The position numbers and the translations under genes are program-made. DNA of 64,000 nucleotides from the NCBI GenBank assembly GCA_036274495.1, contig DASUFP010000076.1, forward strand, positions 8,367 through 72,366, read 5' to 3'. Shown here one piece after another: positions 1,982 through 21,347 of the stretch. This stretch comes from Bacteroidia bacterium. GTDB lineage: Bacteria > Bacteroidota > Bacteroidia > AKYH767-A > OLB10. The notes beneath the pieces were generated by a model that saw only the letters and a program-made list of their open reading frames with translations, made no database searches and was not told the origin of the DNA. How positions within the stretch are numbered: the first letter of the stretch is position 1; every line of letters begins with the position of its first letter.

Positions 1982-1987
1982 TGTAAA

Positions 1988-3994: not shown

Positions 3995-4026
3995 TCGAGG
4001 ATGGGTTGTAAAAAGTGAAGGTAAAA

Positions 4027-6111: not shown

Positions 6112-6119
6112 TATTTTTG
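6112..6119 (+). promoter_or_regulatory. Candidate Bacteroidota -7 promoter element (TAnnTTTG) for the plus-strand defense operon, inside the divergent AT-rich intergenic region 5952-6136.
   Basis: TATTTTTG lies 18 nt upstream of the ATG at 6137. The same 185-bp AT-rich region must also carry the promoter of the divergent minus-strand DUF2130 operon. Confidence 0.3.
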
Positions 6120-6136
6120 TAAAATCTGATTTAACA

Positions 6137-6334
6137 ATGGCACAGAAAGTAAAAAAGGAAATAAAAGGAGGTGTCCGGAAAGGAGCAGGAAGAAAACCAG
6201 TGGCAGATCCAAAAGTGATGGTACCACTTTATATTGAAACATCAATAATTAGTGCCTTAGGAGGATTGGAAGAGGTGCGGAGTGCTTGTTATTCATTCAT
6301 AAGGTCCAAAATTGACAATAAAAAGCAAAATTGA
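6137..6334 (+). CDS. Small basic protein (65 aa), possible DNA-binding regulator and first gene of the plus-strand operon.
   Basis: ORF track. Contains GGVRKGAGRKPV, a basic AT-hook-like stretch. Ends 9 bp before the next gene. Confidence 0.35.
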   Translation: MAQKVKKEIKGGVRKGAGRKPVADPKVMVPLYIETSIISALGGLEEVRSACYSFIRSKIDNKKQN

Positions 6335-6343
6335 AGTATACAA

Positions 6344-7222
6344 ATGAAGGCTAAAAATAGTGTTGAAATTTCCCAGTCGCCAAAGCCGACGTTTTCAGGC
6401 CATGATTCGTTTGAATGCCGACAATTCTGGCTTAAGAAGGGATTTGATCATTTAATGGTCGAAGCAAAGTTCAATGATGAAGCAGTAGTTCCACTAGGTG
6501 TCGGACGAAATATGGTAAACGCGATTCGGCATTGGATGAAATCATTTGGTATGATAGATCAACACGATAAACTAACTGATTTTTCAAGAATAATATTTGG
6601 AAAAAAAGGATTTGATCCATATTTGGAAGATGAATCCTCCTTATGGCTCCTTCATTTTCAACTTGTGACAACTGAATTTGCTTCTCTTTACGGTTTAATT
6701 TTTAATGAATTCAGAAAACAAAAGCCCGAATTTACTAAAGAACATATAGTGCGTTTTATACTGACAAAATATCCAGGTTTCAATGAGAATACCATTGGTA
6801 AGGATTTTGAAACATTCACCAGAATGTATATTCCAAAAAGCAATGAAGCAGAAGAAAATTATGATGGAATCTTATCAGAATTAAATCTTGTTGAAGAAAT
6901 AAAGAAGAACATTTATGTTATCAAGAATGAAGATCGCCAACGAATCCCAGCAGAGATTATTTTGTATTGCATACTTCAGCAATCGAATAAAAAATCATTT
7001 GATTTCGAAAGCTTGCTGCTTGACAAAAATAGTGTGGGGTCAGTTTTCGCTCTAACAAAACAAGGGCTTGCAGATAAACTTGAGGAATTAGGCGAAAATT
7101 ATAAAAGGGAAGGCATTGTATTTAGTAACCATGCCGGAATCCGAGAATTACAGTTCAAGAAAACCTTGCCGTCTCCCAAAGAATTTTTAACGAATTACTA
7201 TAATCAAACTTATGCCGGTTAA
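6344..7222 (+). CDS. DUF4007-like protein (SspB-like candidate).
   Basis: 292 aa. Its stop overlaps the start of the large ATPase, with the PAPS-reductase-like gene next, which is the gene order of SspB-SspC-SspD modules. The call rests on context plus a vague sequence recollection; I have not verified the domain. Confidence 0.4.
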   Translation: MKAKNSVEISQSPKPTFSGHDSFECRQFWLKKGFDHLMVEAKFNDEAVVPLGVGRNMVNAIRHWMKSFGMIDQHDKLTDFSRIIFGKKGFDPYLEDESSLWLLHFQLVTTEFASLYGLIFNEFRKQKPEFTKEHIVRFILTKYPGFNENTIGKDFETFTRMYIPKSNEAEENYDGILSELNLVEEIKKNIYVIKNEDRQRIPAEIILYCILQQSNKKSFDFESLLLDKNSVGSVFALTKQGLADKLEELGENYKREGIVFSNHAGIRELQFKKTLPSPKEFLTNYYNQTYAG

Positions 7223-10200
7223 ATTCTCACCTTCAATCAATATTATTCGAGATACTGATCGTCAGTTCCGGTATGTTGTTACACAAAATGCTTCCAATAC
7301 AATTCAGCAGGTTATTGATGATTTTCATTTTGGATTTCATAGCAATATTATTATTGGTAGTTATGGAACGGGAAAATCCGCACTTTTAAAAGCATTTGAA
7401 CAATCACTTAAAGGCGAATCAAAGTATTTTAATGTTTCATCATTAAAAGTAAAACCATCAGCTGTTAAATTTATACGGTTCATTGGCGAGTATGAATCCA
7501 TCATACAATCGTTTGCTGACCATTTTGGCATAAAAAAGGTATCCAGTGGCCACCAGCAAATTTTTGATGCAATCTTTCAGGAATATGAAGAAGTTCGAAA
7601 GAATGGAATACTTGTAATATTCATTGATGAATTTGGAAAGTTCTTGGAATACGCTTCACAGAATCAAGTTGAAAAAGAACTTTATTTTATACAGCAACTT
7701 GCTGAATTTGTAAACGATCCAGATAGGAATATTTTTCTAATAACAACACTTCATCAGAATTTTGAAGCCTATTCTTCACGATTGGACGTTAATCAGCGGA
7801 ATGAGTGGAAAAAAGTTAAGGGTCGATTCAAAGAAATTACTTTTAATGAACCTGTAGAGCAATTATTGGCTTTAGCATCCTCAGTTATCAACAGCACTCC
7901 TGATAAAAAGCAAATAAAGAAGATACAAGAGCTTAACAAAATCTTCACTCAAAATTCTTTATTTAAGATAAATAGAGATTTTATAAACCAAATTAGTTCA
8001 AAGCTTTTTCCGCTAGATTTTATAACTGGTTGTTGTGCTACAAGAGCATTGCAAGAGTACGGTCAGAATGAACGCTCATTATTTACTTTCATTGAATCGA
8101 GAGATTTTCATAATTTGATTCGTGATAATCGTATCGCAAATCTTTCTTGGCTTTATGATTATTTGTTTTTGAATTTTTATTCATTTTTAAATTCAAAACA
8201 TAATGTACATTTCAATGGATGGTCAGATATAAAGGATTGCATTGAACGCGCTGAGACCGTATTGGTAAAGCACGTTGAGGAAGCTATAGCTATTATCAAG
8301 ACAATTGGCTTGTTGAGTATTTTTACAAATAAAGGAGCGAAAATAAATGAGGAATTTCTGATATCTTATTCCGCAACAGCATTAGATGTCTCGTCCGTAC
8401 CAGAAATTTTGAAGCAACTAAGTGCTCACAAAATTATAAAGTACAGTCGCTTCAATGATTCATTCAGGTTATTCCAAGGTACAGACGTTGATATTGACAA
8501 GGCATTAAATGATGAGGACAAAAAAGTTGAAAAAATTCGTGATGTTGCTTTGTCACTTAATAAGCATTTTGGTGCCATGCCTGGCGTTACCGCAAAGGAA
8601 GTCACCTACAAAACTGGAACAACACGCACTTTCAAATTTGATATTTCTGAAATTCCTAAAATTTTAAAAGCAACCGATGAAATTGACGGATATATAAACC
8701 TTGTAATTTCCGAGCATATATCAGAAATTCAATTGAAGGAACATTCTTCAAAGGATCGCGAAGCTAATCTTTATGGATTGTTTGGAAACTCCAAGAAGAT
8801 TAAATTTCACTTGCATGAGATTGAGAAGGCTCAAAACGTAAAAATGAAAAATACAGATGATAAAATTGTGCAGAAAGAGATGGAAATCATCATCAACAGT
8901 AATAAAAACTTACTGCATCATTATTTCATTGATGAAATATATTCTGATAGCGTCACATGGTTCTATAATGGGAAAAAGTTAAAGATTTCTAACAAAAGAA
9001 TGTTTAACCAGGCACTCTCCGAAATTGCTGCTAAAATTTATCCACTGACCCCTGTATTTAAGAATGAGCTTGTTAATCGCCACAAGATATCCTCATCAAT
9101 TCATACAGCTAGGAAAGATTTCTTTAATCATCTTGTGAATAATTGGAGTGAACCAAAATTAAGTTATGATGATAACTTTCCACCTGACAAAACTATTTAC
9201 ATTTCACTATTACTTGAAAATGGTATACACAAAGCTATAAAGGGAGGATTTGGACTTTATGGCCCGTCCAATCAATCTTCATTCGCGCCGGTGTGGGAAG
9301 CATGTGATGAATTTTTGAGATCAACTAAGCACGGTAAACGTCCGATATCTGAATTATATGACTTACTCTTGAGTAAACCTTACAAATTAAAACTTGGCTT
9401 GGCCGAATTTTTGATCCCAACATACTTGTTTGTAAGAAGAGATGATTACGCCTTGTTTGGAAAAAATGGTTTTATACCGGAAATGAATGAAACCACTTTA
9501 TTGCTTTTTGCCCGCAATGCTGAAGAATATATGATTAAAGCATTTGATTTGGATGGTGTAAAAATAGATTTGTTCAACAAATATCGGGAGTTATTGAAAT
9601 TGAAACCTGAACTCAATCCAACGAACGAGGATTTTATTCATAGTATTAAACCGTTCATGACATTTTACAGACAGCTTCCGGAATATTCAAAATTTACCAA
9701 AAAAGGTTTATCATCAGAAGCGCGTGCTGTACGCGATGCTATTATTAATTCTACTGATCCTGAAAAAACATTCTTTGAAGATTTTCCTGGGGCCCTGCAT
9801 CATACAACTAATGAATTAATAAAATCAAAAAAAGCATTACAGGAATATGCAGAACAACTAAAATCGGTAATTAATGAAATACGATCTGCACATGATGAAT
9901 TAATAAACCGGTTTGAAAAATTCATTTGTATTGATATTGTTGGCACTGAAATGGATTTTCAAGAATACCAGGAATTATTGCAAAAGCGTTTTAAGAATAT
10001 TAAGGACCATCTGCTCTTAAATTATCACAAATCTTTCTTAATGAGAGTAAACTCGCCATTGGACGACAAAAAATCTTGGCTATCATCAGTGGCCCAATCT
10101 TTAATTGGAAAATCCTTAGAAACAATAAAGGATGATGAAGAAAATATTTTGAAAGACAAATTTCGGACTATTGTGCATGAATTGGATAATTTCGTGGAGG

Positions 10201-10418
10201 TATCAGCAATCAAAGCTGATTCGGCCAGGGAAAAAGTTTTTAAGTTTGAAGTGACTGGCGAAAAAATGGTACACAAAACTTTTGTAAAAATTCCAAAAAC
10301 AAAATATTTAGAATTGGATAATATCGAACAGCAAATTAAGAAAATATTGAAAAAGGATAGACAATTAAATATTGCAGTTTTGACAAAGATTATTGAGGAG
10401 CAATTAAGAAATGAATAA
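7212..10418 (+). CDS. Large P-loop NTPase (1068 aa), SspC-like candidate.
   Basis: Walker A GSYGTGKS at about aa 50 and Walker B ILVIFIDEFGK at about aa 135. This compact spacing argues against an ABC/SMC-type ATPase. About 900 aa of unassigned sequence follow. Start and stop both overlap the neighbouring genes (7212-7222 and 10411-10418). Confidence 0.6.
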   Translation: MPVKFSPSINIIRDTDRQFRYVVTQNASNTIQQVIDDFHFGFHSNIIIGSYGTGKSALLKAFEQSLKGESKYFNVSSLKVKPSAVKFIRFIGEYESIIQSFADHFGIKKVSSGHQQIFDAIFQEYEEVRKNGILVIFIDEFGKFLEYASQNQVEKELYFIQQLAEFVNDPDRNIFLITTLHQNFEAYSSRLDVNQRNEWKKVKGRFKEITFNEPVEQLLALASSVINSTPDKKQIKKIQELNKIFTQNSLFKINRDFINQISSKLFPLDFITGCCATRALQEYGQNERSLFTFIESRDFHNLIRDNRIANLSWLYDYLFLNFYSFLNSKHNVHFNGWSDIKDCIERAETVLVKHVEEAIAIIKTIGLLSIFTNKGAKINEEFLISYSATALDVSSVPEILKQLSAHKIIKYSRFNDSFRLFQGTDVDIDKALNDEDKKVEKIRDVALSLNKHFGAMPGVTAKEVTYKTGTTRTFKFDISEIPKILKATDEIDGYINLVISEHISEIQLKEHSSKDREANLYGLFGNSKKIKFHLHEIEKAQNVKMKNTDDKIVQKEMEIIINSNKNLLHHYFIDEIYSDSVTWFYNGKKLKISNKRMFNQALSEIAAKIYPLTPVFKNELVNRHKISSSIHTARKDFFNHLVNNWSEPKLSYDDNFPPDKTIYISLLLENGIHKAIKGGFGLYGPSNQSSFAPVWEACDEFLRSTKHGKRPISELYDLLLSKPYKLKLGLAEFLIPTYLFVRRDDYALFGKNGFIPEMNETTLLLFARNAEEYMIKAFDLDGVKIDLFNKYRELLKLKPELNPTNEDFIHSIKPFMTFYRQLPEYSKFTKKGLSSEARAVRDAIINSTDPEKTFFEDFPGALHHTTNELIKSKKALQEYAEQLKSVINEIRSAHDELINRFEKFICIDIVGTEMDFQEYQELLQKRFKNIKDHLLLNYHKSFLMRVNSPLDDKKSWLSSVAQSLIGKSLETIKDDEENILKDKFRTIVHELDNFVEVSAIKADSAREKVFKFEVTGEKMVHKTFVKIPKTKYLELDNIEQQIKKILKKDRQLNIAVLTKIIEEQLRNE

Positions 10419-11529
10419 AATTAGACACGTATTAGGAATTTCTGGCGGTAAGGATAGTGCAGCTCTTGCTATTTATCTGAATTTAAAATACCCTCAGTTG
10501 AACATTGACTACTATTTCTGTGATACAGGAAAGGAATTGCAAGAAACGTACCTGTTAATTGAACGGCTTGAAAGTCTTCTTGGAAAGAGCATAACAACGC
10601 TAATTGCGGAAGATGCAAAGCAAAACCCCTCTGATAATCCATTTGATCACTTTTTTAAGATATATCGGGGCTACCTTCCTTCTTCAACTGCTCGATGGTG
10701 CACAAAGAAATTAAAATTAGAACCTTTTGAAAAATACGTAGGTGAATCGCCTGTTATTTCATATGTCGGTATTCGTGGCGACGAAAACCGAGAAGGGTAT
10801 ATTTCAAAAAAGTCAAATATTCAATCTATATTTCCTTTCAGGAAGAATATATGGAGTGAAGATGTAATTAATAAAGTGATGCATCCGACAAACAATGAGT
10901 GGCTTATGGATGTATATTCTAGCTTAATGTCGGGACGCAAGCTTGATAAAGTTAATTCGGCCATATTTTCTAGTATTTCTTCTGATGTAGAAAAAGCAAA
11001 AAGGTTATCTGACTTGTTGGACGTTGGCGTTGTTGAGTTCAATAAAGCTGTTTTCAGCTTTATGAAAAATACTGATTATCCGCTGGCTTTAGAAGAAGAT
11101 TTTCCGTTGCTTGAAAATGACGAGGTGCTCGTGAGAGAGGATATATTCAGGATATTACGAGAGAGTGGAGTAGGTGTACCAGAGTACTACGAAAAAATAA
11201 AGTACGAGGTAGATGGTAAAAGCAGTGAATACGCTCGCAGTCGGTCCGGCTGTTACTTTTGTTTCTTTCAGCAAAAAATTGAATGGATTTGGCTGTATGA
11301 ACAACACCCAGATCTTTTTGAAAAGGCCATGCAGTATGAAAATGAAAAAGAAGGCTTTACTTGGAACCAACACGAGAGCCTGGATGATCTGATTCAACCA
11401 TCCCGTATGGAACAGATAAAACGTGACCACCTTTTAAGAAAAAACAAAGAGAAATCAATAAAGTCACCATACCTTTTGGATATTTTGGATGATACTGAAA
11501 GCGATGGATGTACAGCTTGTTTTATTTAA
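10411..11529 (+). CDS. PAPS-reductase-family PP-loop ATP pyrophosphatase (DndC/SspD-like).
   Basis: N-terminal PP-loop LGISGGKDSAAL (the SGGxDS motif). Also RWCTKKLKLEPF, the R(W/F)C motif of the PAPS reductase/DndC family, and a C-terminal Cys pair CYFCFF. 372 aa. Confidence 0.65.
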   Translation: MNKIRHVLGISGGKDSAALAIYLNLKYPQLNIDYYFCDTGKELQETYLLIERLESLLGKSITTLIAEDAKQNPSDNPFDHFFKIYRGYLPSSTARWCTKKLKLEPFEKYVGESPVISYVGIRGDENREGYISKKSNIQSIFPFRKNIWSEDVINKVMHPTNNEWLMDVYSSLMSGRKLDKVNSAIFSSISSDVEKAKRLSDLLDVGVVEFNKAVFSFMKNTDYPLALEEDFPLLENDEVLVREDIFRILRESGVGVPEYYEKIKYEVDGKSSEYARSRSGCYFCFFQQKIEWIWLYEQHPDLFEKAMQYENEKEGFTWNQHESLDDLIQPSRMEQIKRDHLLRKNKEKSIKSPYLLDILDDTESDGCTACFI

Positions 11530-12653
11530 AACTAATTATGGAATATTATTTAAAGGAATACTCTATTCAAGAAGTTTTTCAATTGGTTGATAAAAATCTA
11601 ATTGATTTAAGCCCGGCATATCAAAGAAATTTCATTTGGTCTCCGGATAATCAAAAGGAATTAATTGATACGATTTTAAAAGATTACCCCTTACCAAGTT
11701 TCTTTTTTTATGAAAAAAAAGATAAGACTTTTGAAATGGTTGACGGGCAACAACGAACGAAAACTATTATCCGTTTCATCCAGGGATTTATTACCTCTTC
11801 TAAGGAATTTGATAGGGTGACGTTTGATAGAATTGATCAGGAGAAGTTTTTGAATTATAGAATATCTGTAATAATTATAAAGACTTTACAAAATGAGAGT
11901 CTATTAAAAGAATTTTATGTATTAATAAATAAAAAAGGCGTTCACTTAAATATTGCCGAGGTCAATAAATCTGAATTTTTTGACACTAACTTTATGAAGT
12001 TAGCAAATGAGCTTTTATCATATCAAAATTTAATTAATCTTGACTTGTTTTCCGAAGCTGTTGTAAAAAGAATGAATGATAGATCATTTGTTGAGGAATT
12101 GCTCGCATATCTTTATAGTGGTACAAAAGAAAAGCGCAAATCAGTAGAAAATGTTTTTAAAACTGATATAAGTGACGGCGATTATAAATATTTAGATAAT
12201 CAATTTAAGAGAGTTATCGACAAGATTGAAACACTCAACAGAATATCGCCGATTAGTGAAACAAGATATAAACAAAAAAATGATTTTTATACGCTTTTCT
12301 CTTTTATAAATGAGAATATTGATAGCAATATGGATTTGCTTAACTTTCAATATGCAATTCTGCTATTTATAGATGGAAATGATAAGGAAGGAAGACAAAT
12401 GATTAGACCATCAAATTCTGAATGTGAGGCTTTTAGGGAGTATGCAAACAATTGTATCACGCAATCAAATTCCAGAGCAGCTAGAGAAAATAGACTGAAA
12501 TTTTTTAATGCATTATTAAAGAATGAATCAACTCAAAACAATGAAATTCTAATAAGTGTGCTTGATTATTTATCCTCACTTTATGGAAACGACAAAATAT
12601 CGTTAAAAAAGATTAACGGCTACGAGTTGTTGGATGTAGAAAGGATCAAATAA
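11508..12653 (+). CDS. DUF262 (ParB/GmrSD N-terminal-like) domain protein without a DUF1524/HNH C-terminus. The true start is probably the ATG at 11538 (MEYYLKEY...), immediately after the upstream stop.
   Basis: Textbook DUF262 motifs: AYQRNFIW and VDGQQRTKTI (the DGQQR motif). 381 aa. Confidence 0.7.
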   Translation: MYSLFYLKLIMEYYLKEYSIQEVFQLVDKNLIDLSPAYQRNFIWSPDNQKELIDTILKDYPLPSFFFYEKKDKTFEMVDGQQRTKTIIRFIQGFITSSKEFDRVTFDRIDQEKFLNYRISVIIIKTLQNESLLKEFYVLINKKGVHLNIAEVNKSEFFDTNFMKLANELLSYQNLINLDLFSEAVVKRMNDRSFVEELLAYLYSGTKEKRKSVENVFKTDISDGDYKYLDNQFKRVIDKIETLNRISPISETRYKQKNDFYTLFSFINENIDSNMDLLNFQYAILLFIDGNDKEGRQMIRPSNSECEAFREYANNCITQSNSRAARENRLKFFNALLKNESTQNNEILISVLDYLSSLYGNDKISLKKINGYELLDVERIK

Positions 12654-12660
12654 TTGAGTT

Positions 12661-13689
12661 ATGAATTTTAATTTTCCTGATAATAAACTCATTGATAAAG
12701 GTACGATTTGCAACCGGATTGGTACATCGACTTTTGGAGAGCTTATAAATATTGCAATTCCAGTTGATAACCAAATTTCAATAGATGGAACTGATTTTTA
12801 TTTTACATATTTGAAAGGAGCTGATCCTGGTAATAAAGGCGGTAATTCTATAATTTTGAACTTGTATGCTAGCCAGGAAATTGATTTGGACAATTTAGAG
12901 TATGGTGTACCAGACCTTGTATTAAAAATTTCAAAATTTAGAAATTCGATTAATCCGTTATTTCCAAATAAAAAGCAAAAGCGATTTGAAAAAGAAATTG
13001 AAGCTTTAAGAAAATGTAATGATGAGCCGTTTCAAAATGTTATCAAGATTTTTCATAATGGTATATGTAAAATTAAAAGCTCAAATAATAGATTTTACGA
13101 TGAGCACTTATACTACACGATGGAGTATGCAGAATACGATTTAAAAAGTTATATAGAAGCAAAACATGATGAACTTTCATTGGATGAGAAATTATCATTA
13201 TGTATTAGTATTTGTGAGGGACTCAAAGAGTTATACTCATTAGAATATTATCATAGAGATATAAAACCTGATAATATATTTATGATAGATGGGTTGTGGA
13301 AAATAGGCGATTTGGGACTGGTAGCTGAGCGTAACAATTCTGATGAAATTGATGGAGTGGCAGAAAAAATAGGGCCGATTGGATGGTTGTCGCCAGAATC
13401 GATGAATAAATATCTTTGTGAGGGGAAAGGATTTAAGTTTAAACATGATTTTATTATCGATCATCAATCAGATATTTTTCAACTAGGAAAAGTCTTTTGG
13501 TATATTTTCCAAAATAATGCCCCAGTGGGATCAATAAAAATCTCGGATTTTTTAATTAAACAAAGTAATTTATATTCAGTATTAAGAACTATGTTGAATC
13601 ATTCTAAAAGAAGACGGTTCAAAAATGTAGAAGAGGTAATAAGAATTATGAAAATAGTTGAGAAGAAAATTCTTATGGTTACAAATTAA
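12661..13689 (+). CDS. Eukaryotic-type Ser/Thr protein kinase domain protein, last gene of the plus-strand operon.
   Basis: Catalytic loop YHRDIKPDNIF (the HRDxKPxN motif). KIGDLGL stands in the DFG position. GPIGWLSPE is APE-like. IGTSTFGEL is glycine-loop-like, LVLKISK is a candidate beta3 lysine, and MEYAEYD is hinge-like. 342 aa. Confidence 0.65.
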   Translation: MNFNFPDNKLIDKGTICNRIGTSTFGELINIAIPVDNQISIDGTDFYFTYLKGADPGNKGGNSIILNLYASQEIDLDNLEYGVPDLVLKISKFRNSINPLFPNKKQKRFEKEIEALRKCNDEPFQNVIKIFHNGICKIKSSNNRFYDEHLYYTMEYAEYDLKSYIEAKHDELSLDEKLSLCISICEGLKELYSLEYYHRDIKPDNIFMIDGLWKIGDLGLVAERNNSDEIDGVAEKIGPIGWLSPESMNKYLCEGKGFKFKHDFIIDHQSDIFQLGKVFWYIFQNNAPVGSIKISDFLIKQSNLYSVLRTMLNHSKRRRFKNVEEVIRIMKIVEKKILMVTN

Positions 13690-13698
13690 AGAATGTAT

Positions 13699-16092
13699 TT
13701 ACTCTTCGAGTACACCCATCAGCTGTTCCATTCCAAAATTTAGCAAGAAGTCGGAGTAGTAACTGTCGAAAACATCGCGGATATATTCATCAACAGTAAT
13801 TTCTTCGAGTTTATCTCCTTTTGGAATAGTTAATGCATATTTTCTACGTTTAGTAATCATGTACAGAAAAAGTGTATGGAAATACACAGAGGAGAGATAG
13901 CGTTTTTGTGCAACTACGATTTGATCCTCTGATTTAAGGTTTTTTCTATGGTTTAAAAATACATTACTATCAAGATTGATATAAACTTTTTCAAGTTTAT
14001 CACCTTCACCAACTGGGAACATTACTGTTTCGTGGCTCATTGATATGCCATGCTCTTCCATTTGTTGCCACTGTTCCTTATGTACACGTTTCAATTCCGG
14101 CAAACCAATGTTTTCTAATTCTTCCTCTTGTTTCGGAGCCTTTTCCATTGGTGCTTCTGGTTGTACAATCTTTACAAGCAAAATTTGATTCTGCGCTTCT
14201 CCTGGCGCTGTAAGCGAAATATTTATTTCAATTTCATCACCAACTTTCAATTCATGTGTTGGATTCAACGAAAGTTTGATAGTTCCTTTATTTGGACTGC
14301 TTTTTACGATATTCAGGTACTCTGAGATTTCTTTTTTATTACCTGGTTCATCACCACCTTTAGCAATATTTCTTTTAATTTTCAACAACGCTAATTGCAA
14401 CTCACCTGGTTCTTCAACTCTGTCAAAATAATCATTATCAACGTCAGTTTCAAACTTGATGATTTTTTCACCATTCAATGGAAGATTGATTGCATTTGTG
14501 TTTCCTTTGTTTCCAAGAAGGTTAAAAAAGGTAGGAAAACGTTTTGAATTGAATGGTTTTTCTTCTCGTTCTGCTTTTGGTCTTTGACCATCCTGACGTT
14601 GATTGGTTTCTTTTTTCTCTTCCAACTTAAGTGTGTTTTGTAGTAGTTTAAACAATTCACTATCCTTTGGAAGATTTTTAGCGAATGATTTTATTAACTC
14701 AGAAGTGTCTTCACTTTCCAAGCCAATAGACTCTTTACGATGTCTGTTGATTTCATCTAATTGGCTTTTACGAAGTTTTTTACCAAGATAATCCCTGAGC
14801 ATCAAGGATTCATCACCCCCTTTTAATCGCTCACGATCACTCATGAATAATTCTTCTCGGAAATCTGCTTTCATTTCAGTGCAATCGCAGTGAATCAATA
14901 AGTAATCCTTTAACAGGTTAAATTTTAAAGTTCGTGTAACAAATTCCGAAGTATAACTCCCCTGAACTTGGCCGTTCACAGAAAACATTACAGACATATT
15001 ATTTCTGAAGAATCTGTCACCTATAATTTTTTTTGATTCTTTTACATTACGTTTATCAAGTTTTGGTTTGAAAACATAGCATGTAACTTTAGCTTTACCA
15101 AAATGCTCATCAAAATATTCTTCAGAGAAAAAGCTTTCAACATAGTCATTTTTATCCTCTTCTAGCCTTCTCTTCAGGCCATACAAATCTAATTCAAGTA
15201 CTTTATTGTTCGGGTAACGTTCTTTTTTATCAACTGTATAAATTGGTAATACAGGTTCAAAAAGATATTCATTTAAACTTTGATTTAAATCTTGTGCAAA
15301 GCCTGAGTAGCCTGATGGAAATTGATAAGAAAATAGTTTAATTACCGTACCAGTCTTGAACTTCCTCCCATGTAATTTCAAATCCATCTCACCAGAATCA
15401 AAAGATGGAATCATTCCATCAATTTTCAGATATTCAAAATAGCTGAATCGCCTGGCATCATTTGCCTCACCTATTTTGCGTTGCCTACACAATGTAAAAC
15501 CAAATTTGCCTGTATTATCAAACCGCTTTGAACCAATAAGCTGGTAACGTTTTTTACCGCAAAAAACTAGTGCACCGCTTCCACCCATGTTATACTTTCC
15601 CTGGACAAAGTGAATATTTATTTTGTTACCGCGCACTAATGACAAAAAGGTATTTTCAAAATCTTGAGGATGTTGACCTTCACCATTGTCATAAATAATT
15701 ACAGAAGTGTTTCGAGTGGGGCCGTCAGCAACAATCTGTATTTCTTCTGCTTGTTTTCTTCTAAAAGATTGCAAGTCCCATTGAGTGTGATCAGGAAAGA
15801 ATTTGTTAATGGCCTGCTCCATTGTATGTGGTGCATCAGCAGAAGTGGGATTTATACCCAATTCAATACATTTTCGCATCAACAAGGCATCAATAGAATT
15901 AGTGACTTTCTCAACTAGTGCTGCAATCGGATTTGATTGTTGACCCCTAACAATTCCAAATAGTTTTTCATCTCCTCCAAACGGAGTCCAATTGTCATTT
16001 TTGAAAATGTCCGGATTGCTTTCTATTATTTCATCTACGGATTCTTCTGTTTGTGCAAAATACAATTGCTCAAAAATCTTTCTAAGTTGCAT
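13699..16092 (-). CDS. GHKL-superfamily (Bergerat-fold, HATPase_c-like) ATPase with a long uncharacterised C-terminal region (797 aa).
   Basis: N-box ALVEKVTNSIDA (the E-x-x-x-N-S-x-D-A motif), G1 box IIYDNGEGQ (DxGxG), G2 box GKYNMGGSGA. Convergent with the kinase gene; the two stop codons are 9 bp apart. Confidence 0.6.
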   Translation of the reverse strand: MQLRKIFEQLYFAQTEESVDEIIESNPDIFKNDNWTPFGGDEKLFGIVRGQQSNPIAALVEKVTNSIDALLMRKCIELGINPTSADAPHTMEQAINKFFPDHTQWDLQSFRRKQAEEIQIVADGPTRNTSVIIYDNGEGQHPQDFENTFLSLVRGNKINIHFVQGKYNMGGSGALVFCGKKRYQLIGSKRFDNTGKFGFTLCRQRKIGEANDARRFSYFEYLKIDGMIPSFDSGEMDLKLHGRKFKTGTVIKLFSYQFPSGYSGFAQDLNQSLNEYLFEPVLPIYTVDKKERYPNNKVLELDLYGLKRRLEEDKNDYVESFFSEEYFDEHFGKAKVTCYVFKPKLDKRNVKESKKIIGDRFFRNNMSVMFSVNGQVQGSYTSEFVTRTLKFNLLKDYLLIHCDCTEMKADFREELFMSDRERLKGGDESLMLRDYLGKKLRKSQLDEINRHRKESIGLESEDTSELIKSFAKNLPKDSELFKLLQNTLKLEEKKETNQRQDGQRPKAEREEKPFNSKRFPTFFNLLGNKGNTNAINLPLNGEKIIKFETDVDNDYFDRVEEPGELQLALLKIKRNIAKGGDEPGNKKEISEYLNIVKSSPNKGTIKLSLNPTHELKVGDEIEINISLTAPGEAQNQILLVKIVQPEAPMEKAPKQEEELENIGLPELKRVHKEQWQQMEEHGISMSHETVMFPVGEGDKLEKVYINLDSNVFLNHRKNLKSEDQIVVAQKRYLSSVYFHTLFLYMITKRRKYALTIPKGDKLEEITVDEYIRDVFDSYYSDFLLNFGMEQLMGVLEE

Positions 16093-16337
16093 AATGTCAG
16101 TTGTTTAAAATTGGCAAGGTTACAAATATATACAAAAACCCTGTGTTTCAACAAAATGACTCATATCTATGGAAGCATGAAGAAATCAAAGCTATTATAG
16201 CATTAACAAATAAACCATTTTTGAGGCCCTGTTATGGATTATTTTAAGACTTGACAGTTGCTTTCAAGGCATAGTCACCTTCGAAGCTTGATCCTTGCTC
16301 AAATCTTTGCTAATGAAGCGGAACGGGCCTTTAAATA

Positions 16338-16388
16338 TCCACCAAAAAAAACAGCCGGCCTCGCGCGAGGCCGGTTGTTTTGGATAAG
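16338..16388. terminator. Bidirectional rho-independent terminator between the methyltransferase and the GHKL ATPase gene.
   Basis: aaaaaaaa-cagCCGGCCTCGcgCGAGGCCGGttg-tttt. A perfect 9-bp GC-rich stem flanked by an A-run on one side and a T-run on the other. Confidence 0.6.
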
Positions 16389-16753
16389 ATTCCATAACGT
16401 TGTGAATAAGTGGTGCTGAAATTAAGCGCTTAAAATCTGCACCGGCCAGTCACAACGGAGGATTCTTTGAGATATAGTTCTCTTTCGTGGTTCTTAAATA
16501 CTACTTTTTACTTACCTTTTGGTCGGGGTGCCGGTGGTGGATTATTTCCGCGTCCGGGTCCGGAAGGTTTGCTAGTTGTACTGGGGCCATTTGGTGGCCT
16601 GACTGTTGTTTTTGCCATAAATAAACTTGTTTTTAAATTATTTGACATTCGGTGCGCCACTTTTAGCATGCATTAGCGACAGAACCAATTACAAGCTCTA
16701 AGTTAGAGTAATTTTAGTAAAAAGCAAATATTTTCAAATTATAAATCAAACCG

Positions 16754-17506
16754 CTAAAGCCCAATCGACTTCATATATTGAAAATACACCGGGTCAATCT
16801 CGAACCCAATGTAGAATCGTCCCAGCTCCTTCGCAACCTTGCATATTGTACCGCTGCCTGCGAACGGATCAACAACCACATCCCCTGGATTTGTAGAAAT
16901 CAGGATTATTTTACGCGCGATTTCTTCCGGTATCGGACACGGATGAGGATTTCCGGATTTGATTTTTGAAACATTTTTCACAATGTTTTCAATCCACCAA
17001 TCATAAAGTGGGGCCATATGTCCGGCTTCCATTCTAGCAATAATTCGCTTATCATTCGGGTTTTTGTAGGGTTGTGATGCCCTCTTGAAATCAGGCCTGT
17101 GATTCCAAAAAGTGATTTGCCTGGATTGTTTCTTCGTGTTTGAATTGTAACACCAGAATGCACTTTCTGTACATGAGGTCATTAATGCCTGTGGCAATAG
17201 GTTAATTGTAGGCTCCGGATAATGAATAATCGCTGATTTTTTACCCCAAAATGCATCGTGCAACAATTGAACATATTCATCATTTTTTAAATTGTCATCA
17301 TAATAATCGTAATGATAATTCTGGTTGTAAGGCGGGTCAGAGATAAAGAAGCAATCATTCCATGTTGACAAATCCATTGTCCTGAAATCAGCATTAAAAA
17401 CAGTGTCGAGCGGGAGACAAGTTAGATTACTTGTGGTGGCAGTTGGAATAAGTATGCCGTCATACGGTAGATAGATTCCTGAGTCGGTTTTTTTAGTTAT
17501 TTTCAT
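16754..17506 (-). CDS. Beta-class amino (N6-adenine or N4-cytosine) DNA methyltransferase.
   Basis: Motif IV DPPY (FFISDPPYNQ) precedes motif I VVDPFAGSGT. That order defines the beta class. 250 aa. Confidence 0.8.
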   Translation of the reverse strand: MKITKKTDSGIYLPYDGILIPTATTSNLTCLPLDTVFNADFRTMDLSTWNDCFFISDPPYNQNYHYDYYDDNLKNDEYVQLLHDAFWGKKSAIIHYPEPTINLLPQALMTSCTESAFWCYNSNTKKQSRQITFWNHRPDFKRASQPYKNPNDKRIIARMEAGHMAPLYDWWIENIVKNVSKIKSGNPHPCPIPEEIARKIILISTNPGDVVVDPFAGSGTICKVAKELGRFYIGFEIDPVYFQYMKSIGL

Positions 17507-17712
17507 AATATTAAATATTTAGAAAACAACTATAGTTTCGACTTACCGAAAAGTAAATGCTAATTATATTTAAATTAAAAAATAAATGAAACAGTGAGCG
17601 TAGGAAACGCTCAAGAAACAAAACAGCAGTTTCAGGAATGAATTTTAGTAGTTACGATTAATCTGCTATTTGCACACAACACAACATTGCTTGAGTGATC
17701 AACAGCCGCGAT

Positions 17713-19302
17713 TTATCCTTTCTGCCTGTCAGCCAGAATAACTTGTTCAATAAAGTCATCACCCTTGGTTTCGACTGTGGTCTGGACATAAGATAGAAAA
17801 TCATCAAGCTTGGCATGGCCAGAAAACAACATGCATATTTCAGCCTGAATTTTTCGATGGTAGTAAAAATTTGTGCAGAAGGATCGTCTTGCCACATGGG
17901 AGCTGATGCACTCAAACAATTTTGGAACACGAGGTTCTGGCCAACCTTTCTGTTGTTCTTTATACAGTTCTGACTTACCGGTTTGTAAATTTATCCTATA
18001 TGAAATAAAATCCTGATTGAAGGACTCATCAATTGATACAACTCTCGGCATAACATCTTGTATTAAAATATTGTATTTATCCAGGTCCAATTCTTTAAAC
18101 TGGAAATTATACTTCTCAAGTATTTTATACACTTTATCGTGCAGTGGAATTTGTTTCCTTTCTCCGACTTTGGTTGATCGCGATTCAATAAAATGGATGG
18201 TATGTCCCTTGTGTTGTTTAGTTTGTACCCTAAAAGCTTGGTTCCAGTCGCCAAAACGTAAGCCTCCAGTGTATGCACCAACGAGGAAAAGATCCCTGAC
18301 ATATTCAAGTTGTTTTTCTGTCCAGCTATCACCAAATTTAATCTGCATCATAGATTCTAATTGCTCTTCTGTTAGGTATGGCTGTCTTACTTCCTCCCGT
18401 TCTGCAGAATATGTTTTGCTGGAAGGTCTTACGGCGGTTGGTGAAATGCATTTATCTTCATCAATAGCCCAGTACAATACAGATTTCAATCGGGATACAT
18501 ACTTTGCAAAATTGTTAAGTGTATTCATCTGCGGCCTTAACCAATTGAGGAATTCTTTAGATACGTTGTCATTATATTGATTGATAGTAATTTTGGAATT
18601 CCATTTCTTGAATTTTTTGGAGAGATTAACATAAGGAGTATCATCCTTCAACCTTCCTTTACCTGGCAACTGCATTTTTGCTTTCGCAACCTCCAGAATA
18701 TAGTCTGCGAATAATGAAGAATTGTCTTGTATTGCACCTGGCTCAGATAAATGTTCACTAGTAGCAGTGATAGCGAATGTGGGTTCTAGAATATATTCAA
18801 GCGGAGCATCATGAAGAACAAAGAAACGATCAAGATTAATTGTCCGGTTATTAGAATCCACCAATCGGAAATTATGCCTTATGATTTTATTTTTTAATTG
18901 CTCATAAAAAAATCCTCGTGGTAATTCTTTGTTTATTGCTTCATCCACATCCTTCTGAAACTTCGTTGGTTGTTTATGAATGGAAATATCAATCCCATCT
19001 TCAATAATGGAGTGGAATGCTTTGTTATTAAAAAACTCCACAATTTGTTCATCTGATAACCTATAATAGTCGGTGAGTCGGTCACCGATATAATTTATCA
19101 AATCAAGCATGGTGGTCCTCAAAACGGAATCAATAGGCAGATTTTTTACATCATCCCAATGGTTCCTGGGAAGCGAAATTCCAGTAGATTTATACAACTG
19201 CAAGTATTTGCCCCGATACTTAATTCCAAAACCAATGCTCACCTGAATAGGGTGGGTTGTAGCTTTTGTTTGCTGTAACCTGAGTGAAATTGTTGGCTTC
19301 AT
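17713..19302 (-). CDS. Tyrosine recombinase/integrase of the Bacteroidota type.
   Basis: C-terminal catalytic region HVARRSFCTNFYYHRK...MLFSGHAKLDDFLSYV, giving the R...H-x-x-R...H...Y arrangement with the terminal Tyr. The N-terminus MKPTISLRLQQ...YRGKYLQLY is arm-binding-domain-like. 529 aa. The overlapping ORF 17658..17930(-) is judged spurious. Confidence 0.7.
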   Translation of the reverse strand: MKPTISLRLQQTKATTHPIQVSIGFGIKYRGKYLQLYKSTGISLPRNHWDDVKNLPIDSVLRTTMLDLINYIGDRLTDYYRLSDEQIVEFFNNKAFHSIIEDGIDISIHKQPTKFQKDVDEAINKELPRGFFYEQLKNKIIRHNFRLVDSNNRTINLDRFFVLHDAPLEYILEPTFAITATSEHLSEPGAIQDNSSLFADYILEVAKAKMQLPGKGRLKDDTPYVNLSKKFKKWNSKITINQYNDNVSKEFLNWLRPQMNTLNNFAKYVSRLKSVLYWAIDEDKCISPTAVRPSSKTYSAEREEVRQPYLTEEQLESMMQIKFGDSWTEKQLEYVRDLFLVGAYTGGLRFGDWNQAFRVQTKQHKGHTIHFIESRSTKVGERKQIPLHDKVYKILEKYNFQFKELDLDKYNILIQDVMPRVVSIDESFNQDFISYRINLQTGKSELYKEQQKGWPEPRVPKLFECISSHVARRSFCTNFYYHRKIQAEICMLFSGHAKLDDFLSYVQTTVETKGDDFIEQVILADRQKG

Positions 19303-19690: not shown

Positions 19691-21343
19691 TTACTCAACC
19701 AAAAGTTTCGCCACATGACGGGAAGTTTTATTTTGTACCGATATAAAATAAACTCCCGGCGAAAGTGATGGTAAAGAAAGTTGTATTTCGGAGGTTAGGT
19801 CCGTTACCGAGCTTTCAAATACGGTGCGGCCTAACAGGTCGGTTATGAGGCAACTGCCCTTTGAGAAAACGGCATTTTGCAAAGTAAGCGTTACCGTATT
19901 GCCCGTTACCGGATTGGGATAGAGCAGGAGGTTTGTTTGAGGTATTTCCTCCAATCCTACATTGGTGCAAAGCGTCATCACATTAAGCCCCGAGTGTACC
20001 GTAAGTGCCGGGGTGTATACCGTACCAATGGTGCTGTCGATGATGCCGCTATAGGTGGTGTACTGAACAATGGGCAGGGAATCCACTGTGACGGTGTGAA
20101 ATTTCTCATTACAGCCTGCATAACCAAGTGAGTCGGCTTTTAGGAGGTACATATCATACGAAGAACCATAACTGCTGGTAAAGCCAGCAGCTACTATCCC
20201 GCCATCATCCGTGAGGTCCATGGAACGGGCTTGCTCGGTGAGTGTATCCGAATAAAAGCGTGTCCACAGGGTATCACCGTTGGCCGCGAACTTCACCATC
20301 ATAACATCACCTGGGTCGGCAAATGTACCTTGCGAAATATATCCTGCCGTTATATAGGAACCGTCAGGGGTTTCTTTGCATTTGAGGCAAACACCAGTAT
20401 TCCATGTTTCCAGACTGCGGTTCCATACAACCTGGCCATTGCTGTCTAATTTCATAATAAAATAATTTTCACCTCCCGGTGATACATCGCTTGAGCCACA
20501 AGCAAGGAAACCATAATCAGAGGTCTTTTCAATGTGATAAATATTTTTGGGTGCTTCATTTCCTGACATAACGCCATACGACCAGATTGACAAGAGGTTT
20601 CCAGCACTGTCAGTTTTTGAAAGATGTGACAATGCTGGAGTACAAAGATTATTGGTGCTGCCACTGGAAAGTAGGAGATCATGATTCTGCTCTTCAAGAA
20701 TACTGTAAACAGGATTTGGCTGTGGAATACTGCACCGGTAAGTCCGTGTCCATAGGTGATTGCCGGCTGAATCGAATTTGGCCAGCATCGGCTCCGAGCT
20801 ATTAGGGTTTCCACCAGGTATGCCTTGTGTGGAGCCGGCCACTAAAAAACCTCCGTCATTTGTGATGATAACATCTTCGGCAATATCAGCCTGTACCGTC
20901 CCAATTGCTTTACTCCAAATCAGGTTGCCTAATGAATCCAGCCGCAGCACCCAGAAGTCGCCAAAGTCACCTGCCAAAAGCCCACAAGCAATATAACCCC
21001 GGTCAATAGTTTGCTTGATTGAAAAAAGGTAATTTGTGGCCGGTCCAAATCCTCTGGTCCAAAGTGTGTCTCCCCATTCATCGGTCTTTACAATAAGACC
21101 TTTTAGTCCAGCAAATCCGGCCATTATTCCATCACCACACATCATATATCCACCGTCACTAGTTTTTATTATATCGTGGCATTCCTGACCCAATGCAGAA
21201 GTATATGTTTTTTGAAACATTGGCTGTGATTGTGAAAATGAATCAATGCTTGTCATGGTCACCAATGTGACAATGATTAAAATAAATGTTTCAGATTTAA
21301 TTACCTGTTTTCTTTTTGCAGAAACATTAGAGTATATGATCAT
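19691..21343 (-). CDS. Secreted beta-propeller-like repeat protein with a T9SS (Por) C-terminal sorting domain.
   Basis: N-terminal signal peptide. Repeated ...TSDGGY.. / ..DGGF..AG modules. C-terminus LYPNPVTGNTVTLTL...GVYFISVQNKTSRHVAKLLVE, which is a type A T9SS CTD. 550 aa. Confidence 0.7.
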   Translation of the reverse strand: MIIYSNVSAKRKQVIKSETFILIIVTLVTMTSIDSFSQSQPMFQKTYTSALGQECHDIIKTSDGGYMMCGDGIMAGFAGLKGLIVKTDEWGDTLWTRGFGPATNYLFSIKQTIDRGYIACGLLAGDFGDFWVLRLDSLGNLIWSKAIGTVQADIAEDVIITNDGGFLVAGSTQGIPGGNPNSSEPMLAKFDSAGNHLWTRTYRCSIPQPNPVYSILEEQNHDLLLSSGSTNNLCTPALSHLSKTDSAGNLLSIWSYGVMSGNEAPKNIYHIEKTSDYGFLACGSSDVSPGGENYFIMKLDSNGQVVWNRSLETWNTGVCLKCKETPDGSYITAGYISQGTFADPGDVMMVKFAANGDTLWTRFYSDTLTEQARSMDLTDDGGIVAAGFTSSYGSSYDMYLLKADSLGYAGCNEKFHTVTVDSLPIVQYTTYSGIIDSTIGTVYTPALTVHSGLNVMTLCTNVGLEEIPQTNLLLYPNPVTGNTVTLTLQNAVFSKGSCLITDLLGRTVFESSVTDLTSEIQLSLPSLSPGVYFISVQNKTSRHVAKLLVE

Positions 21344-21347
21344 CGCC

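What the first reader, a model, noticed from the sequence alone, without database searches (positions are those of the whole stretch)
12661..13689. Stand-alone eukaryotic-like Ser/Thr kinase embedded in a defense operon
HRDIKPDNIF, DLG, an APE-like motif and a glycine-loop-like IGTSTFGEL make this a full ePK catalytic domain. It has no sensor or transmembrane domains. It is the terminal gene of the Ssp-like operon and abuts a convergent GHKL ATPase. Kinases are rare in bacterial immunity (for example Stk2-type abortive infection). Its substrate here might be a phage or host protein, or the upstream DUF262 NTPase.
Basis: partly seen in the sequence, partly recalled or inferred. Interest (0 to 1): 0.55.

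Follow-up and report, generated by a model that had tools for sequence, protein, structure and literature searches.

The report
Protein kinase wired into phosphorothioate defence
The ORF is a real, catalytically intact eukaryotic-type protein kinase that always sits directly after a ParB-like DUF262 NTPase gene inside Ssp DNA-phosphorothioation operons of Bacteroidota, a conserved add-on to this anti-phage system that I found described nowhere.

Summary
ORF 12661-13689 (+) encodes a 342-aa Hanks-type protein kinase. Evidence: Pfam PF00069 at E 1.3e-19, an AlphaFold model with pLDDT 87, and only protein kinases among the top PDB fold matches. Every catalytic residue is conserved in 74-75 of 75 family representatives. 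It lies in a variable N-terminal beta extension, and the real loop is GNKGGNS (residues 57-63).

The kinase ends a tight sspB-sspC-sspD-DUF262-kinase operon. In 74 of 74 testable metagenome loci, a kinase gene lies directly downstream of the DUF262 homologue. All 32 loci with at least 6 kb on both sides carry Ssp genes, although gene order varies. The link holds down to 30% kinase identity. No SspE nuclease domain is present.

Most likely the DUF262 NTPase is a DNA/phosphorothioate sensor and the kinase is its output. This is an inference. Most loci also carry a Pbe-like module, or the 797-aa GHKL protein seen here, so a regulatory role is a serious rival.

No paper in the searched library describes this pair, and a 2025 review lists only dndFGH/sspFGH, sspE and pbeABCD as restriction branches. 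Verdict: a new variant of a known kind, of moderate-to-high interest.

The parts
6344..7222 (+). sspB (DUF4007, DNA-binding component of the phosphorothioation machinery)
   Evidence: Pfam DUF4007 E 5.3e-72. PADLOC SspB E 1.6e-95. Overlaps sspC by 11 nt.
7212..10418 (+). sspC (1068-aa AAA+ ATPase, BrxC/PglY-related)
   Evidence: PADLOC SspC E 0 over the full length; BrxC E 1.4e-59. Pfam AAA E 2e-6.
10411..11529 (+). sspD (PAPS-reductase-type sulfur transferase with an SGGKDS PP-loop)
   Evidence: PADLOC SspD E 6.4e-94. Pfam PAPS_reduct E 4.6e-8. SGGKDS motif seen in the translation.
11538..12653 (+). ParB-like DUF262 NTPase plus a helical C-terminal domain (371 aa). The longest ORF starts at 11508, but homologues and the NCBI call start at MEY, nt 11538. 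It has no DUF1524/HNH nuclease domain. Motifs: YQRNFIW at 11619-11639 and DGQQR at 11742-11756.
   Evidence: Pfam GmrSD_N E 2.2e-20, covering only residues 25-158. PADLOC NsnA E 6.1e-26 over nearly the full length; no SspE or DndB hit. QRxxxW and DGQQR are invariant in 24 homologues. The AF2 model has pLDDT 83, and the best PDB folds are ParB, Noc and BrxU.
12661..13689 (+). Stand-alone Hanks-type (ePK) protein kinase, 342 aa: the finding itself
   Evidence: Its start lies 7 nt after the DUF262 stop. The N-terminus MxFxFP is conserved, so the start codon is right.
12661..12795 (+). Family-specific N-terminal beta extension (residues 1-45).
   Evidence: The AF2 model places strands at 2-4, 9-12, 15-19, 26-28 and 38-41. 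F3, F5, P6, P34, N37 and I39 are invariant in the close subfamily. The extension is shortened or variable in more distant relatives.
12829..12849 (+). Glycine-rich ATP-binding loop GNKGGNS (residues 57-63)
   Evidence: It lies between beta1 and beta2 of the model. G60 is kept in 68/75; position 63 is S in 60 and G in 13 of 75.
12925..12996 (+). beta3 lysine K89 (12925-12927) to alphaC glutamate E112 (12994-12996)
   Evidence: Both are kept in 74/75 relatives. Coordinates.
13252..13317 (+). Catalytic loop HRDIKPDNIF (13252-13281) and Mg-binding DLG (13309-13317)
   Evidence: H198, R199, D200, K202, N205, D217 and G219 are kept in 75/75. Coordinates.
13372..13398 (+). P+1/APE segment GPIGWLSPE. 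Together with D271 (13471-13473) and R319 (13615-13617), it carries ePK-specific C-lobe residues.
   Evidence: P245, E246 and R319 are kept in 75/75; D271 in 73/75.
13699..16092 (-). Convergent 797-aa GHKL-type ATPase-like protein. It is a recurrent Ssp neighbour and may be a further component of the system. Motifs: EKVTNSIDA at 15886-15912, DNGEG at 15676-15690, GKYNMGGSG at 15574-15600.
   Evidence: Pfam HATPase_c_3 E 6e-5, below the cut-off. Motifs. More than 2400 homologues. It sits next to Ssp genes in L082, L087, L172, L173, L174, L175 and in 10 of 80 metagenome loci.
17713..19302 (-). Tyrosine-recombinase-type integrase at the edge of the low-GC island that carries the operon (context only)
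   Evidence: Pfam Phage_int_SAM_5 E 1e-6 and Phage_integrase E 0.006. GC is 0.30-0.38 up to about 20 kb, against 0.43-0.47 beyond. Integrases flank related loci L081, L082 and L087.

Best explanation
Shown:
- The ORF encodes a catalytically competent, stand-alone eukaryotic-type protein kinase.
- It forms an obligate two-gene cassette with the preceding ParB-like DUF262 NTPase gene.
- That cassette is a conserved accessory arm of Ssp DNA-phosphorothioation systems in Bacteroidota.

Inferred mechanism:
- The DUF262 protein has the sensor half of SspE-type proteins (an NTPase head with QRxxxW and DGQQR motifs, plus a helical domain proposed to bind DNA) but no nuclease.
- It reads the phosphorothioate/DNA state or a nucleotide signal and switches the kinase on, probably as a complex. 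The kinase's family-specific N-terminal beta extension is a candidate docking surface.
- The kinase then phosphorylates proteins of the phage, of the host (abortive-infection-like), or both.
- This would give the Ssp system a non-nuclease output that works beside the nuclease/ATPase modules found in the same loci: Pbe-like in most, and the 797-aa GHKL protein here.

I put identity and the genetic linkage at above 0.95. The confidence given below is for the sensor-effector mechanism.
For: Kinase identity:
- Pfam PF00069, E 1.3e-19.
- AF2 model with pLDDT 86.9.
- All top PDB fold matches are ePKs.
- Catalytic and ePK-specific residues are kept in 73-75 of 75 cluster representatives down to about 33% identity, which argues for selection on activity.

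The pair:
- The kinase lies directly downstream on the same strand in 74/74 metagenome loci found through the DUF262 partner.
- The same holds in 10 loci reached from kinase homologues, including kinases only 30-34% identical.
- Gene spacing ranges from a 7-nt gap to an 8-nt overlap.
- Identity to the window copies is more tightly correlated between the two proteins (r = 0.82) than between either of them and SspB, SspC or SspD (0.51-0.73).

Link to Ssp:
- Ssp genes are present in 32/32 loci with at least 6 kb on both sides.
- Gene order is shuffled (BCD-PK, BCD-Pbe-PK, PK-BCD, divergent), yet DUF262 and the kinase always stay adjacent.

Sensor analogy:
- QRxxxW and DGQQR are invariant.
- There is a near-full-length match to NsnA (E 6e-26). 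NsnA's C-terminal domain is reported to be homologous to the DNA-binding middle domain of SspE (PMC12065111).
- In SspE the DUF262 GTPase couples phosphorothioate recognition to the effector domain (PMC13251355, PMC9646914).

Other points:
- A few well-covered loci have no Pbe-like and no GHKL partner: L081, L115, L124.
- No phosphatase gene appears among the genes examined around the operon.
Against: - No experiment exists, and there is no natural DUF262-kinase fusion among the top 120 or 150 relatives.
- The DUF262 partner does not match SspE or DndI by sequence profile, and neither appears among the 50 listed Foldseek matches. Only ParB, Noc and BrxU appear, weakly. Phosphorothioate sensing is therefore an analogy, not a shown homology.
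- In 29 of 32 well-covered loci another candidate restriction module is present: Pbe-like in 24 and GHKL in 5. One further locus, L104, has a full GmrSD-like protein. The pair therefore need not be the restriction arm, and a regulatory role fits as well.
- The substrate and the Ser/Thr versus Tyr specificity are unknown.
- No sspA is present in this 64-kb window, so modification here would depend on a desulfurase encoded elsewhere.
Confidence: 0.45

Rival explanations
1. Regulatory module. The DUF262-kinase pair does not attack the phage. Instead it controls the system's own proteins, tuning phosphorothioation by SspBCD (as DndB restrains Dnd) or licensing and restraining the co-encoded Pbe-like or GHKL modules by phosphorylation (as the PglW kinase is an integral part of BREX type 2/Pgl).
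For: - 29/32 well-covered loci carry a separate candidate restriction module, and L104 has a GmrSD-like protein.
- The kinase gene can abut pbeA directly: the kinase match ends at 11060 and the PbeA match starts at 11060 in L150 to L167.
- SspC is a BrxC/PglY relative (E 1.4e-59), and BREX type 2 pairs such an ATPase with a kinase (PMC12839542).
- In other Ssp loci a ParB-superfamily protein fills the slot after sspD: DndB family in L172 and ParB_N in L175. DndB is described as a regulator.
- A phage kinase is reported to inactivate DndFGH by phosphorylation, so such machines can be controlled by phosphorylation.
Against: - There is no DndB Pfam or PADLOC match for the partner. The profile-profile match to the L172 DndB protein covers only the DGQ(Q/H)R motif, with probability 11%.
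- The NCBIfam PglW and MAD6 models are far below their cut-offs.
- No phosphatase is present to reverse a regulatory mark.
- The pair persists in loci without a Pbe-like or GHKL module.
Confidence: 0.3
2. Autonomous embedded defence pair. DUF262-kinase is a self-sufficient two-gene anti-phage system, like the Stk2 or PD-T4-6 kinases with a ParB-like sensor. It merely nests inside Ssp operons and needs no phosphorothioate.
For: - Defence genes are often embedded in other systems (bioRxiv 10.1101/2024.01.29.577857).
- The pair moves as a cassette relative to sspBCD.
- Among PADLOC models the kinase matches defence kinases: mad6 3.4e-26, Stk2 8.5e-19, PD-T4-6 1.3e-17.
Against: - Ssp genes are present in 32/32 well-covered loci, and no counter-example was seen down to 30% kinase identity. 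That is tighter than expected for a cargo gene.
- PADLOC holds only defence proteins, so the kinase hits there say little.
- The pair is absent from the plasmid and phage collections.
Confidence: 0.12
3. Ordinary signalling kinase, or an inactive remnant, that sits next to a defence operon by chance.
For: Stand-alone Hanks kinases are common in Bacteroidota. NCBI annotates this one only as 'protein kinase'.
Against: - The synteny is strict: 74/74.
- The gene lies on a low-GC integrase-bounded island.
- Catalytic residues are kept in 74-75 of 75 relatives.
- It sits in tight operon spacing.
Confidence: 0.03

Closest known systems
SspABCD-SspE phosphorothioate-sensing defence (Xiong 2020; Gao 2022, PMC9646914; PMC13251355)
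   Same: It has the same modification module, sspB-sspC-sspD. The gene after sspD encodes a DUF262 NTPase with DGQQR and QRxxxW motifs plus a helical domain.
   Different: There is no DUF1524/HNH nuclease domain and no PADLOC SspE match. A separate protein-kinase gene follows where SspE would carry its nuclease. sspA is not in the window.
PglW kinase of BREX type 2 / Pgl, and kinase-fused DndF (PMC12839542, PMC10853773)
   Same: These are Hanks-type kinases built into a DNA-modification-based defence that also has a BrxC/PglY-type ATPase (SspC is a relative). They have been proposed as protein-targeting co-effectors.
   Different: PglW is a 1400-1600-aa multidomain protein (NERD nuclease, pseudokinase, kinase, wHTHs). 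The kinase here is a 342-aa single domain with a separate ParB-like partner. NCBIfam PglW scores 17.6 bits against a 990-bit cut-off.
MAD6 kinase of the MADS methylation-associated defence system
   Same: It is the best PADLOC match for the kinase (E 3.4e-26), and it is a kinase in a modification-based multi-gene system.
   Different: The match covers only residues 104-298 against a 659-position model. NCBIfam MAD6 scores 32.8 bits against a 460-bit cut-off. MADS uses methylation, not phosphorothioation, and its other genes differ.
Single-protein defence kinases Stk2 and PD-T4-6
   Same: They have an ePK catalytic core acting in phage defence, and no paired phosphatase.
   Different: The matches are partial (E 1e-17 to 1e-19, core only). 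Those kinases act alone and are not tied to a DUF262 partner or to ssp genes.
Menshen NsnA and other nuclease-less DUF262 proteins (PMC12065111)
   Same: The partner protein has the NsnA-like architecture (ParB-DUF262 plus a C-terminal helical domain), with a near-full-length match at E 6e-26.
   Different: Menshen needs the NsnB ABC ATPase and NsnC, and neither is here. The downstream gene is a kinase, and the context is Ssp.
DndB (ParB-like regulator of Dnd systems)
   Same: It is of similar size, belongs to the ParB superfamily with a DGQ(Q/H)R motif, and occupies a position next to the modification genes. A true DndB-family protein fills the same slot in the Ssp locus L172.
   Different: No Pfam DndB (PF14072) hit. 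hhalign similarity is limited to 37 columns around the motif (probability 11%).

Membership tests
Eukaryotic-type (Hanks) protein kinase, Pfam PF00069 | Profile score above the curated cut-off | tested here: met
   71 bits against 31.7, E 1.3e-19. PF07714 scores 69 bits against 23.1.
Eukaryotic-type (Hanks) protein kinase, Pfam PF00069 | Catalytic residues: beta3 Lys, alphaC Glu, HRD Asp, catalytic-loop Asn, DFG Asp | tested here: met
   K89, E112, D200, N205 and D217 are present, and kept in 74-75 of 75 relatives.
Eukaryotic-type (Hanks) protein kinase, Pfam PF00069 | Bilobal kinase fold with ePK-specific C-lobe elements (APE Glu, alphaF Asp, subdomain XI Arg) that atypical or small-molecule kinases lack | tested here: met
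   AF2 pLDDT 86.9, and Foldseek top hits are all ePKs over 300-320 columns. E246 and R319 are kept in 75/75; D271 in 73/75.
Eukaryotic-type (Hanks) protein kinase, Pfam PF00069 | Phosphotransfer to protein Ser/Thr (or Tyr) | not testable with these tools
   This needs in-vitro kinase assays. The sequence gives mixed cues: an HRDxKPxN catalytic loop but a P-x-x-W P+1 loop.
SspABCD-SspE system | SspB, SspC and SspD present and adjacent | tested here: met
   PADLOC SspB 1.6e-95, SspC 0, SspD 6.4e-94. The genes overlap by 8-11 nt.
SspABCD-SspE system | SspA cysteine desulfurase in the locus (IscS may substitute) | tested here: not met
   tblastn with the L084 SspA finds nothing in the 64-kb window. 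SspA is present in related loci L081, L084, L086, L170 and L171.
SspABCD-SspE system | SspE: DUF262 fused to a DUF1524/HNH nuclease | tested here: not met
   The partner is 371 aa and has GmrSD_N only. It has no GmrSD_C/DUF1524 and no PADLOC SspE hit. The PDB profile search does not reach SspE or DndI.
SspABCD-SspE system | C-ps-C phosphorothioate modification and phosphorothioate-dependent phage resistance | not testable with these tools
   This needs LC-MS/MS and phage assays.
BREX type 2 PglW | NCBIfam NF033442 equivalog score and the multidomain NERD-pseudokinase-kinase architecture | tested here: not met
   17.6 bits against a 990-bit cut-off. The protein is a single 342-aa domain.
MADS MAD6 | NCBIfam NF047741 equivalog score | tested here: not met
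   32.8 bits against a 460-bit cut-off. The PADLOC mad6 match covers only the kinase core.
Menshen (NsnABC) | NsnA-like DUF262 protein followed by the NsnB ABC ATPase and NsnC | tested here: not met
   An NsnA-like protein is present (E 6e-26), but the next gene is a kinase. There is no NsnB or NsnC.
DndB | Pfam PF14072 match | tested here: not met
   None of the 24 family members hits PF14072. hhalign against a true DndB gives probability 11%.

The most novel reading that the evidence does not exclude
The DUF262-kinase pair is a restriction arm without a nuclease. A ParB-like NTPase converts the phosphorothioate (self/non-self) status of DNA into protein phosphorylation, so an epigenetic restriction-modification-type system would use a protein kinase as its 'R' output. 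With the GHKL-800 family noticed here, it would account for part of the about 84% of sspBCD clusters reported to have no known restriction partner.
Probability: 0.3. Interest if true: 0.8.

Novelty: new variant of a known kind. Interest (0 to 1): 0.62.

Why it matters
Wang et al. (PMC8092258) reported that 83.9% of sspBCD clusters have neither sspE nor sspFGH, and asked whether other restriction partners exist. A 2025 review (PMC12707154) still lists only dndFGH/sspFGH, sspE and pbeABCD.

The cassette found here is conserved, enzymatically intact and strictly linked to Ssp. It occurs in soil, marine and human-gut Bacteroidota. It offers a concrete, testable candidate for how phosphorothioate status is coupled to a cellular response through phosphorylation rather than DNA cleavage. 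It also gives a compact system (five genes plus a desulfurase) for asking what kinases do in modification-based immunity, a question still open for PglW and MAD6.

Tried and rejected
- The genome-contig scan with the kinase alignment was largely wasted. The tool chose generic kinase patterns (HRD[IL]KPDN, WKIGDLGL), and only L001 and L002 were true relatives.
- Single-sequence and profile searches of PDB sequences with the DUF262 partner, and Foldseek against the PDB, reached only ParB, Noc and BrxU. They did not list SspE (7DRS) or DndI (9JFL), so I could not show SspE-like sensing.
- I looked for DUF262-kinase fusions among the top hits of both families and among 150 cluster representatives. 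There were none. The long hits are generic multidomain kinases.
- Plasmid and phage collections gave no match for the kinase.
- The sigma-70 promoter scan is at chance level (56 found against 50 expected). No terminator lies between the kinase gene and the GHKL gene.
- No tRNA gene lies next to the integrase.
- Eight full-text literature searches, and reading within eleven papers, found no description of an Ssp-linked DUF262-kinase pair or GHKL protein. Absence from this library is not proof of absence.
- I considered and rejected an aminoglycoside/choline-kinase-like enzyme, a pseudokinase, membership of Stk2, PD-T4-6, MAD6 or PglW, and Menshen.
Full report
**The observation.** ORF 12661-13689 (+) is exactly as reported: 342 codons plus a stop.
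- Pfam places it in Pkinase (PF00069, E 1.3e-19, 71 bits against a 31.7-bit cut-off) and almost equally in PK_Tyr_Ser-Thr (69 bits). The profile alignment starts only at residue 104, so the N-lobe needed separate checking.
- An AlphaFold2 model built on 24 homologues has mean pLDDT 86.9 and pTM 0.84.
- Every listed Foldseek PDB match is a protein kinase (AAK1, FGFR2, PknB/Stk1, TTK, BRAF), aligned over about 300-320 columns.
- HRDIKPDNIF (198-207), DLG (217-219) and GPIGWLSPE (238-246) are present.
- In 75 sequences, mostly 50%-identity cluster representatives down to about 33% identity, K89 and E112 are kept in 74. H198, R199, D200, K202, N205, D217, G219, P245, E246 and R319 are kept in all 75, and D271 in 73.
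- The APE glutamate, alphaF aspartate and subdomain-XI arginine mark true protein kinases rather than aminoglycoside- or choline-kinase-like enzymes (established knowledge of the fold).

**One correction.** IGTSTFGEL (20-28) is not the glycine loop.
- Its columns are variable or gapped in relatives (G26 is a gap in 67/75).
- In the model it lies in an extra N-terminal beta extension (residues 1-45).
- The loop between beta1 (44-50) and beta2 (63-70) is GNKGGNS (57-63), with G60 kept in 68/75.
- Specificity is open. The catalytic loop is Ser/Thr-like, but the P+1 loop has the P-x-x-W pattern that I know as typical of tyrosine kinases.

**The surroundings.** Upstream lies a tight operon:
- sspB (6344-7222; DUF4007; PADLOC SspB 1.6e-95);
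- sspC (7212-10418; PADLOC SspC E 0);
- sspD (10411-11529; PADLOC SspD 6.4e-94; SGGKDS motif);
- a DUF262/GmrSD_N protein, with its true start at 11538 judged from homologues, ending at 12653;
- the kinase gene, 7 nt later.

The DUF262 protein keeps the QRxxxW and DGQQR NTPase signatures invariantly. It matches the Menshen NsnA model over almost its whole length (E 6e-26). It has no DUF1524/HNH domain and no SspE, DndB or DndI match. There is no sspA and no Pbe-like gene in the 64-kb window.

Converging on the kinase gene, 9 nt away, is a 797-aa ORF with GHKL N-box, G1 and G2 motifs but only a sub-threshold Pfam hit. The whole block lies on a low-GC island that ends at an integrase gene. NCBI holds the identical kinase protein from a Bacteroidia MAG.

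**Comparative evidence.** The kinase belongs to a family of about 300-345-aa stand-alone proteins, with 83 clusters at E up to 1e-30.
- In ten loci reached from kinase homologues, the DUF262 gene directly precedes the kinase gene, and Ssp genes are present in the locus. The loci are Dyadobacter, Aquimarina, Empedobacter, Algoriphagus, Marinoscillum and several MAGs. They include kinases only 30-34% identical.
- Searching metagenomes with the DUF262 partner instead gave 80 loci at 41-72% identity, from marine, freshwater, rumen and human-gut samples.
- A kinase gene lies directly downstream on the same strand in 74 of the 74 loci with room for it.
- Ssp genes are present in all 32 loci with at least 6 kb on both sides. 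The 11 loci without an Ssp hit are all truncated.
- Gene order varies: sspBCD-pair, sspBCD-Pbe-pair, pair-sspBCD, divergent. The two genes never separate.
- Their identities to the window copies correlate at r = 0.82, second only to SspB with SspC.
- No fusion of the two was seen. Neither plasmid nor phage collections hold the kinase.

**Other modules in these loci.**
- Fifty of the 80 loci carry a Pbe-like module. In L084, PADLOC PbeA scores E 3e-297, and a PbeC/LmuB-like ATPase is present.
- Ten of the 80 carry the GHKL-797 homologue, and no locus has both.
- Of the 32 well-covered loci, 24 have a Pbe-like module, 5 have the GHKL gene and 3 have neither. One of those three, L104, has a full GmrSD-like protein.
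- The GHKL family is large (more than 2400 proteins, with the top 120 hits 66-84% identical) and spans several phyla.
- In four further contexts from other lineages it again sits beside sspBCD. There the slot after sspD holds a DndB-family or ParB_N protein plus small unknown proteins.

The 3' end of Ssp operons thus looks like a variable region. A ParB-superfamily protein is paired there with different partners, and the kinase is one of them.

**Mechanism.**
- *Shown:* an intact ePK under selection for its catalytic residues, an obligate genetic pair with a DUF262 NTPase, and strict linkage to the phosphorothioation genes.
- *Inferred:* the DUF262 protein acts as the sensor/switch, by analogy with SspE. 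In SspE the DUF262 GTPase couples phosphorothioate recognition to the nuclease domain (PMC9646914, PMC13251355). The NsnA-type C-terminal domain is held to be homologous to SspE's DNA-binding middle domain (PMC12065111). The kinase would be the output, phosphorylating phage or host proteins.
- I give this about 0.45.
- The main rival (about 0.3) is that the pair regulates the system's own components. Three points support it: most loci already have another candidate restriction module, SspC is a BrxC/PglY relative and BREX type 2 has an integral kinase, and DndB-type proteins are described as regulators.
- An autonomous embedded pair (about 0.12) fits poorly with the 32/32 linkage.
- A chance neighbour is effectively excluded.

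**Comparison with what is known, and novelty.**
- The modification half is a regular Ssp system.
- The accessory half is not SspE (no nuclease). It is not Menshen (no NsnB or NsnC), not DndB (no PF14072 match), and not PglW or MAD6 (NCBIfam scores far below the cut-offs).
- Kinases in modification-based defence have precedents: PglW, MAD6, and kinase-fused DndF. The idea is therefore not categorically new.
- I found no paper linking a DUF262-kinase pair, or a GHKL protein, to Ssp.
- A 2025 review names only dndFGH/sspFGH, sspE and pbeABCD as restriction branches. Wang et al. note that 83.9% of sspBCD clusters lack a known partner.
- I therefore rate it a new variant of a known kind, with interest 0.62.

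Noticed in passing
window 13699-16092 (-); also L082, L087, L172, L173, L174, L175: The 797-aa GHKL-like protein belongs to a large family (more than 2400 proteins; the top 120 hits are 66-84% identical) found in several phyla. It lay next to sspBCD in every context I examined, and never together with a Pbe-like module in the 80 metagenome loci. It has no PADLOC hit, and no paper pairs 'SspBCD' with 'GHKL'. It looks like an undescribed Ssp-associated component.
   Followed up: partly
L084 11048-16103; L086 1-3564; L168 7960-13082; most of L108-L167: A PbeABCD-like module (SNF2/PLD helicase PbeA, a small protein, an SMC-like PbeC, and a small 'dnd_assoc_4' protein) accompanies sspBCD plus the DUF262-kinase pair in 50 of 80 loci, many from human-gut metagenomes. 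Pbe was described with Dnd systems. Here it is joined to Ssp systems.
   Followed up: partly
L172 3923-5627; L175 5741-7918; L173 13093-15965: In Ssp loci that lack the kinase, the slot after sspD holds other ParB-superfamily proteins (DndB family, ParB_N) plus small proteins of unknown function. This suggests a variable sensor-partner region at the 3' end of Ssp operons.
   Followed up: partly
L104 11148-15932 (-): One locus with the DUF262-kinase pair also has a convergent 761-aa full GmrSD-type protein (DUF262 plus DUF1524), a 505-aa protein of unknown function and a putAbiC protein. The pair can therefore coexist with an SspE-like nuclease.
   Followed up: no
window 1-19302: The operon sits on a low-GC island (GC 0.30-0.38 against 0.43-0.47 for the rest) that ends at an integrase gene (17713-19302). 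No tRNA gene was found in the window. Related loci are flanked by integrase, relaxase or TraG genes, which points to integrative mobile elements.
   Followed up: partly
window 1988-5951 (-): Upstream and divergent from sspB is a three-gene block: a DUF2779 protein (668 aa), a 207-aa protein with no family match, and a DUF2130 protein (433 aa). The last gives only weak PADLOC DpdE and LmuB hits. It may be another island cargo or defence system.
   Followed up: no
window 16754-17506 (-) and 16355-16374 (-): The N6_N4 DNA methyltransferase ORF (250 aa) matches only profile positions 99-220, so it may be truncated at the N-terminus; the L087 counterpart is 331 aa. A strong GC-rich terminator hairpin lies between it and the start of the GHKL gene.
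   Followed up: no
L168 5942-7023; L169 6912-7993: In these loci the DUF262 partner is called as two ORFs (206 and 89 aa) ahead of a 301-aa kinase. This may be a frameshift or decay of the partner.
   Followed up: no
window 19691-28115 (-): Just outside the island are two secreted proteins with type IX secretion sorting domains, of 550 and 2255 aa. This fits a Bacteroidota host.
   Followed up: no
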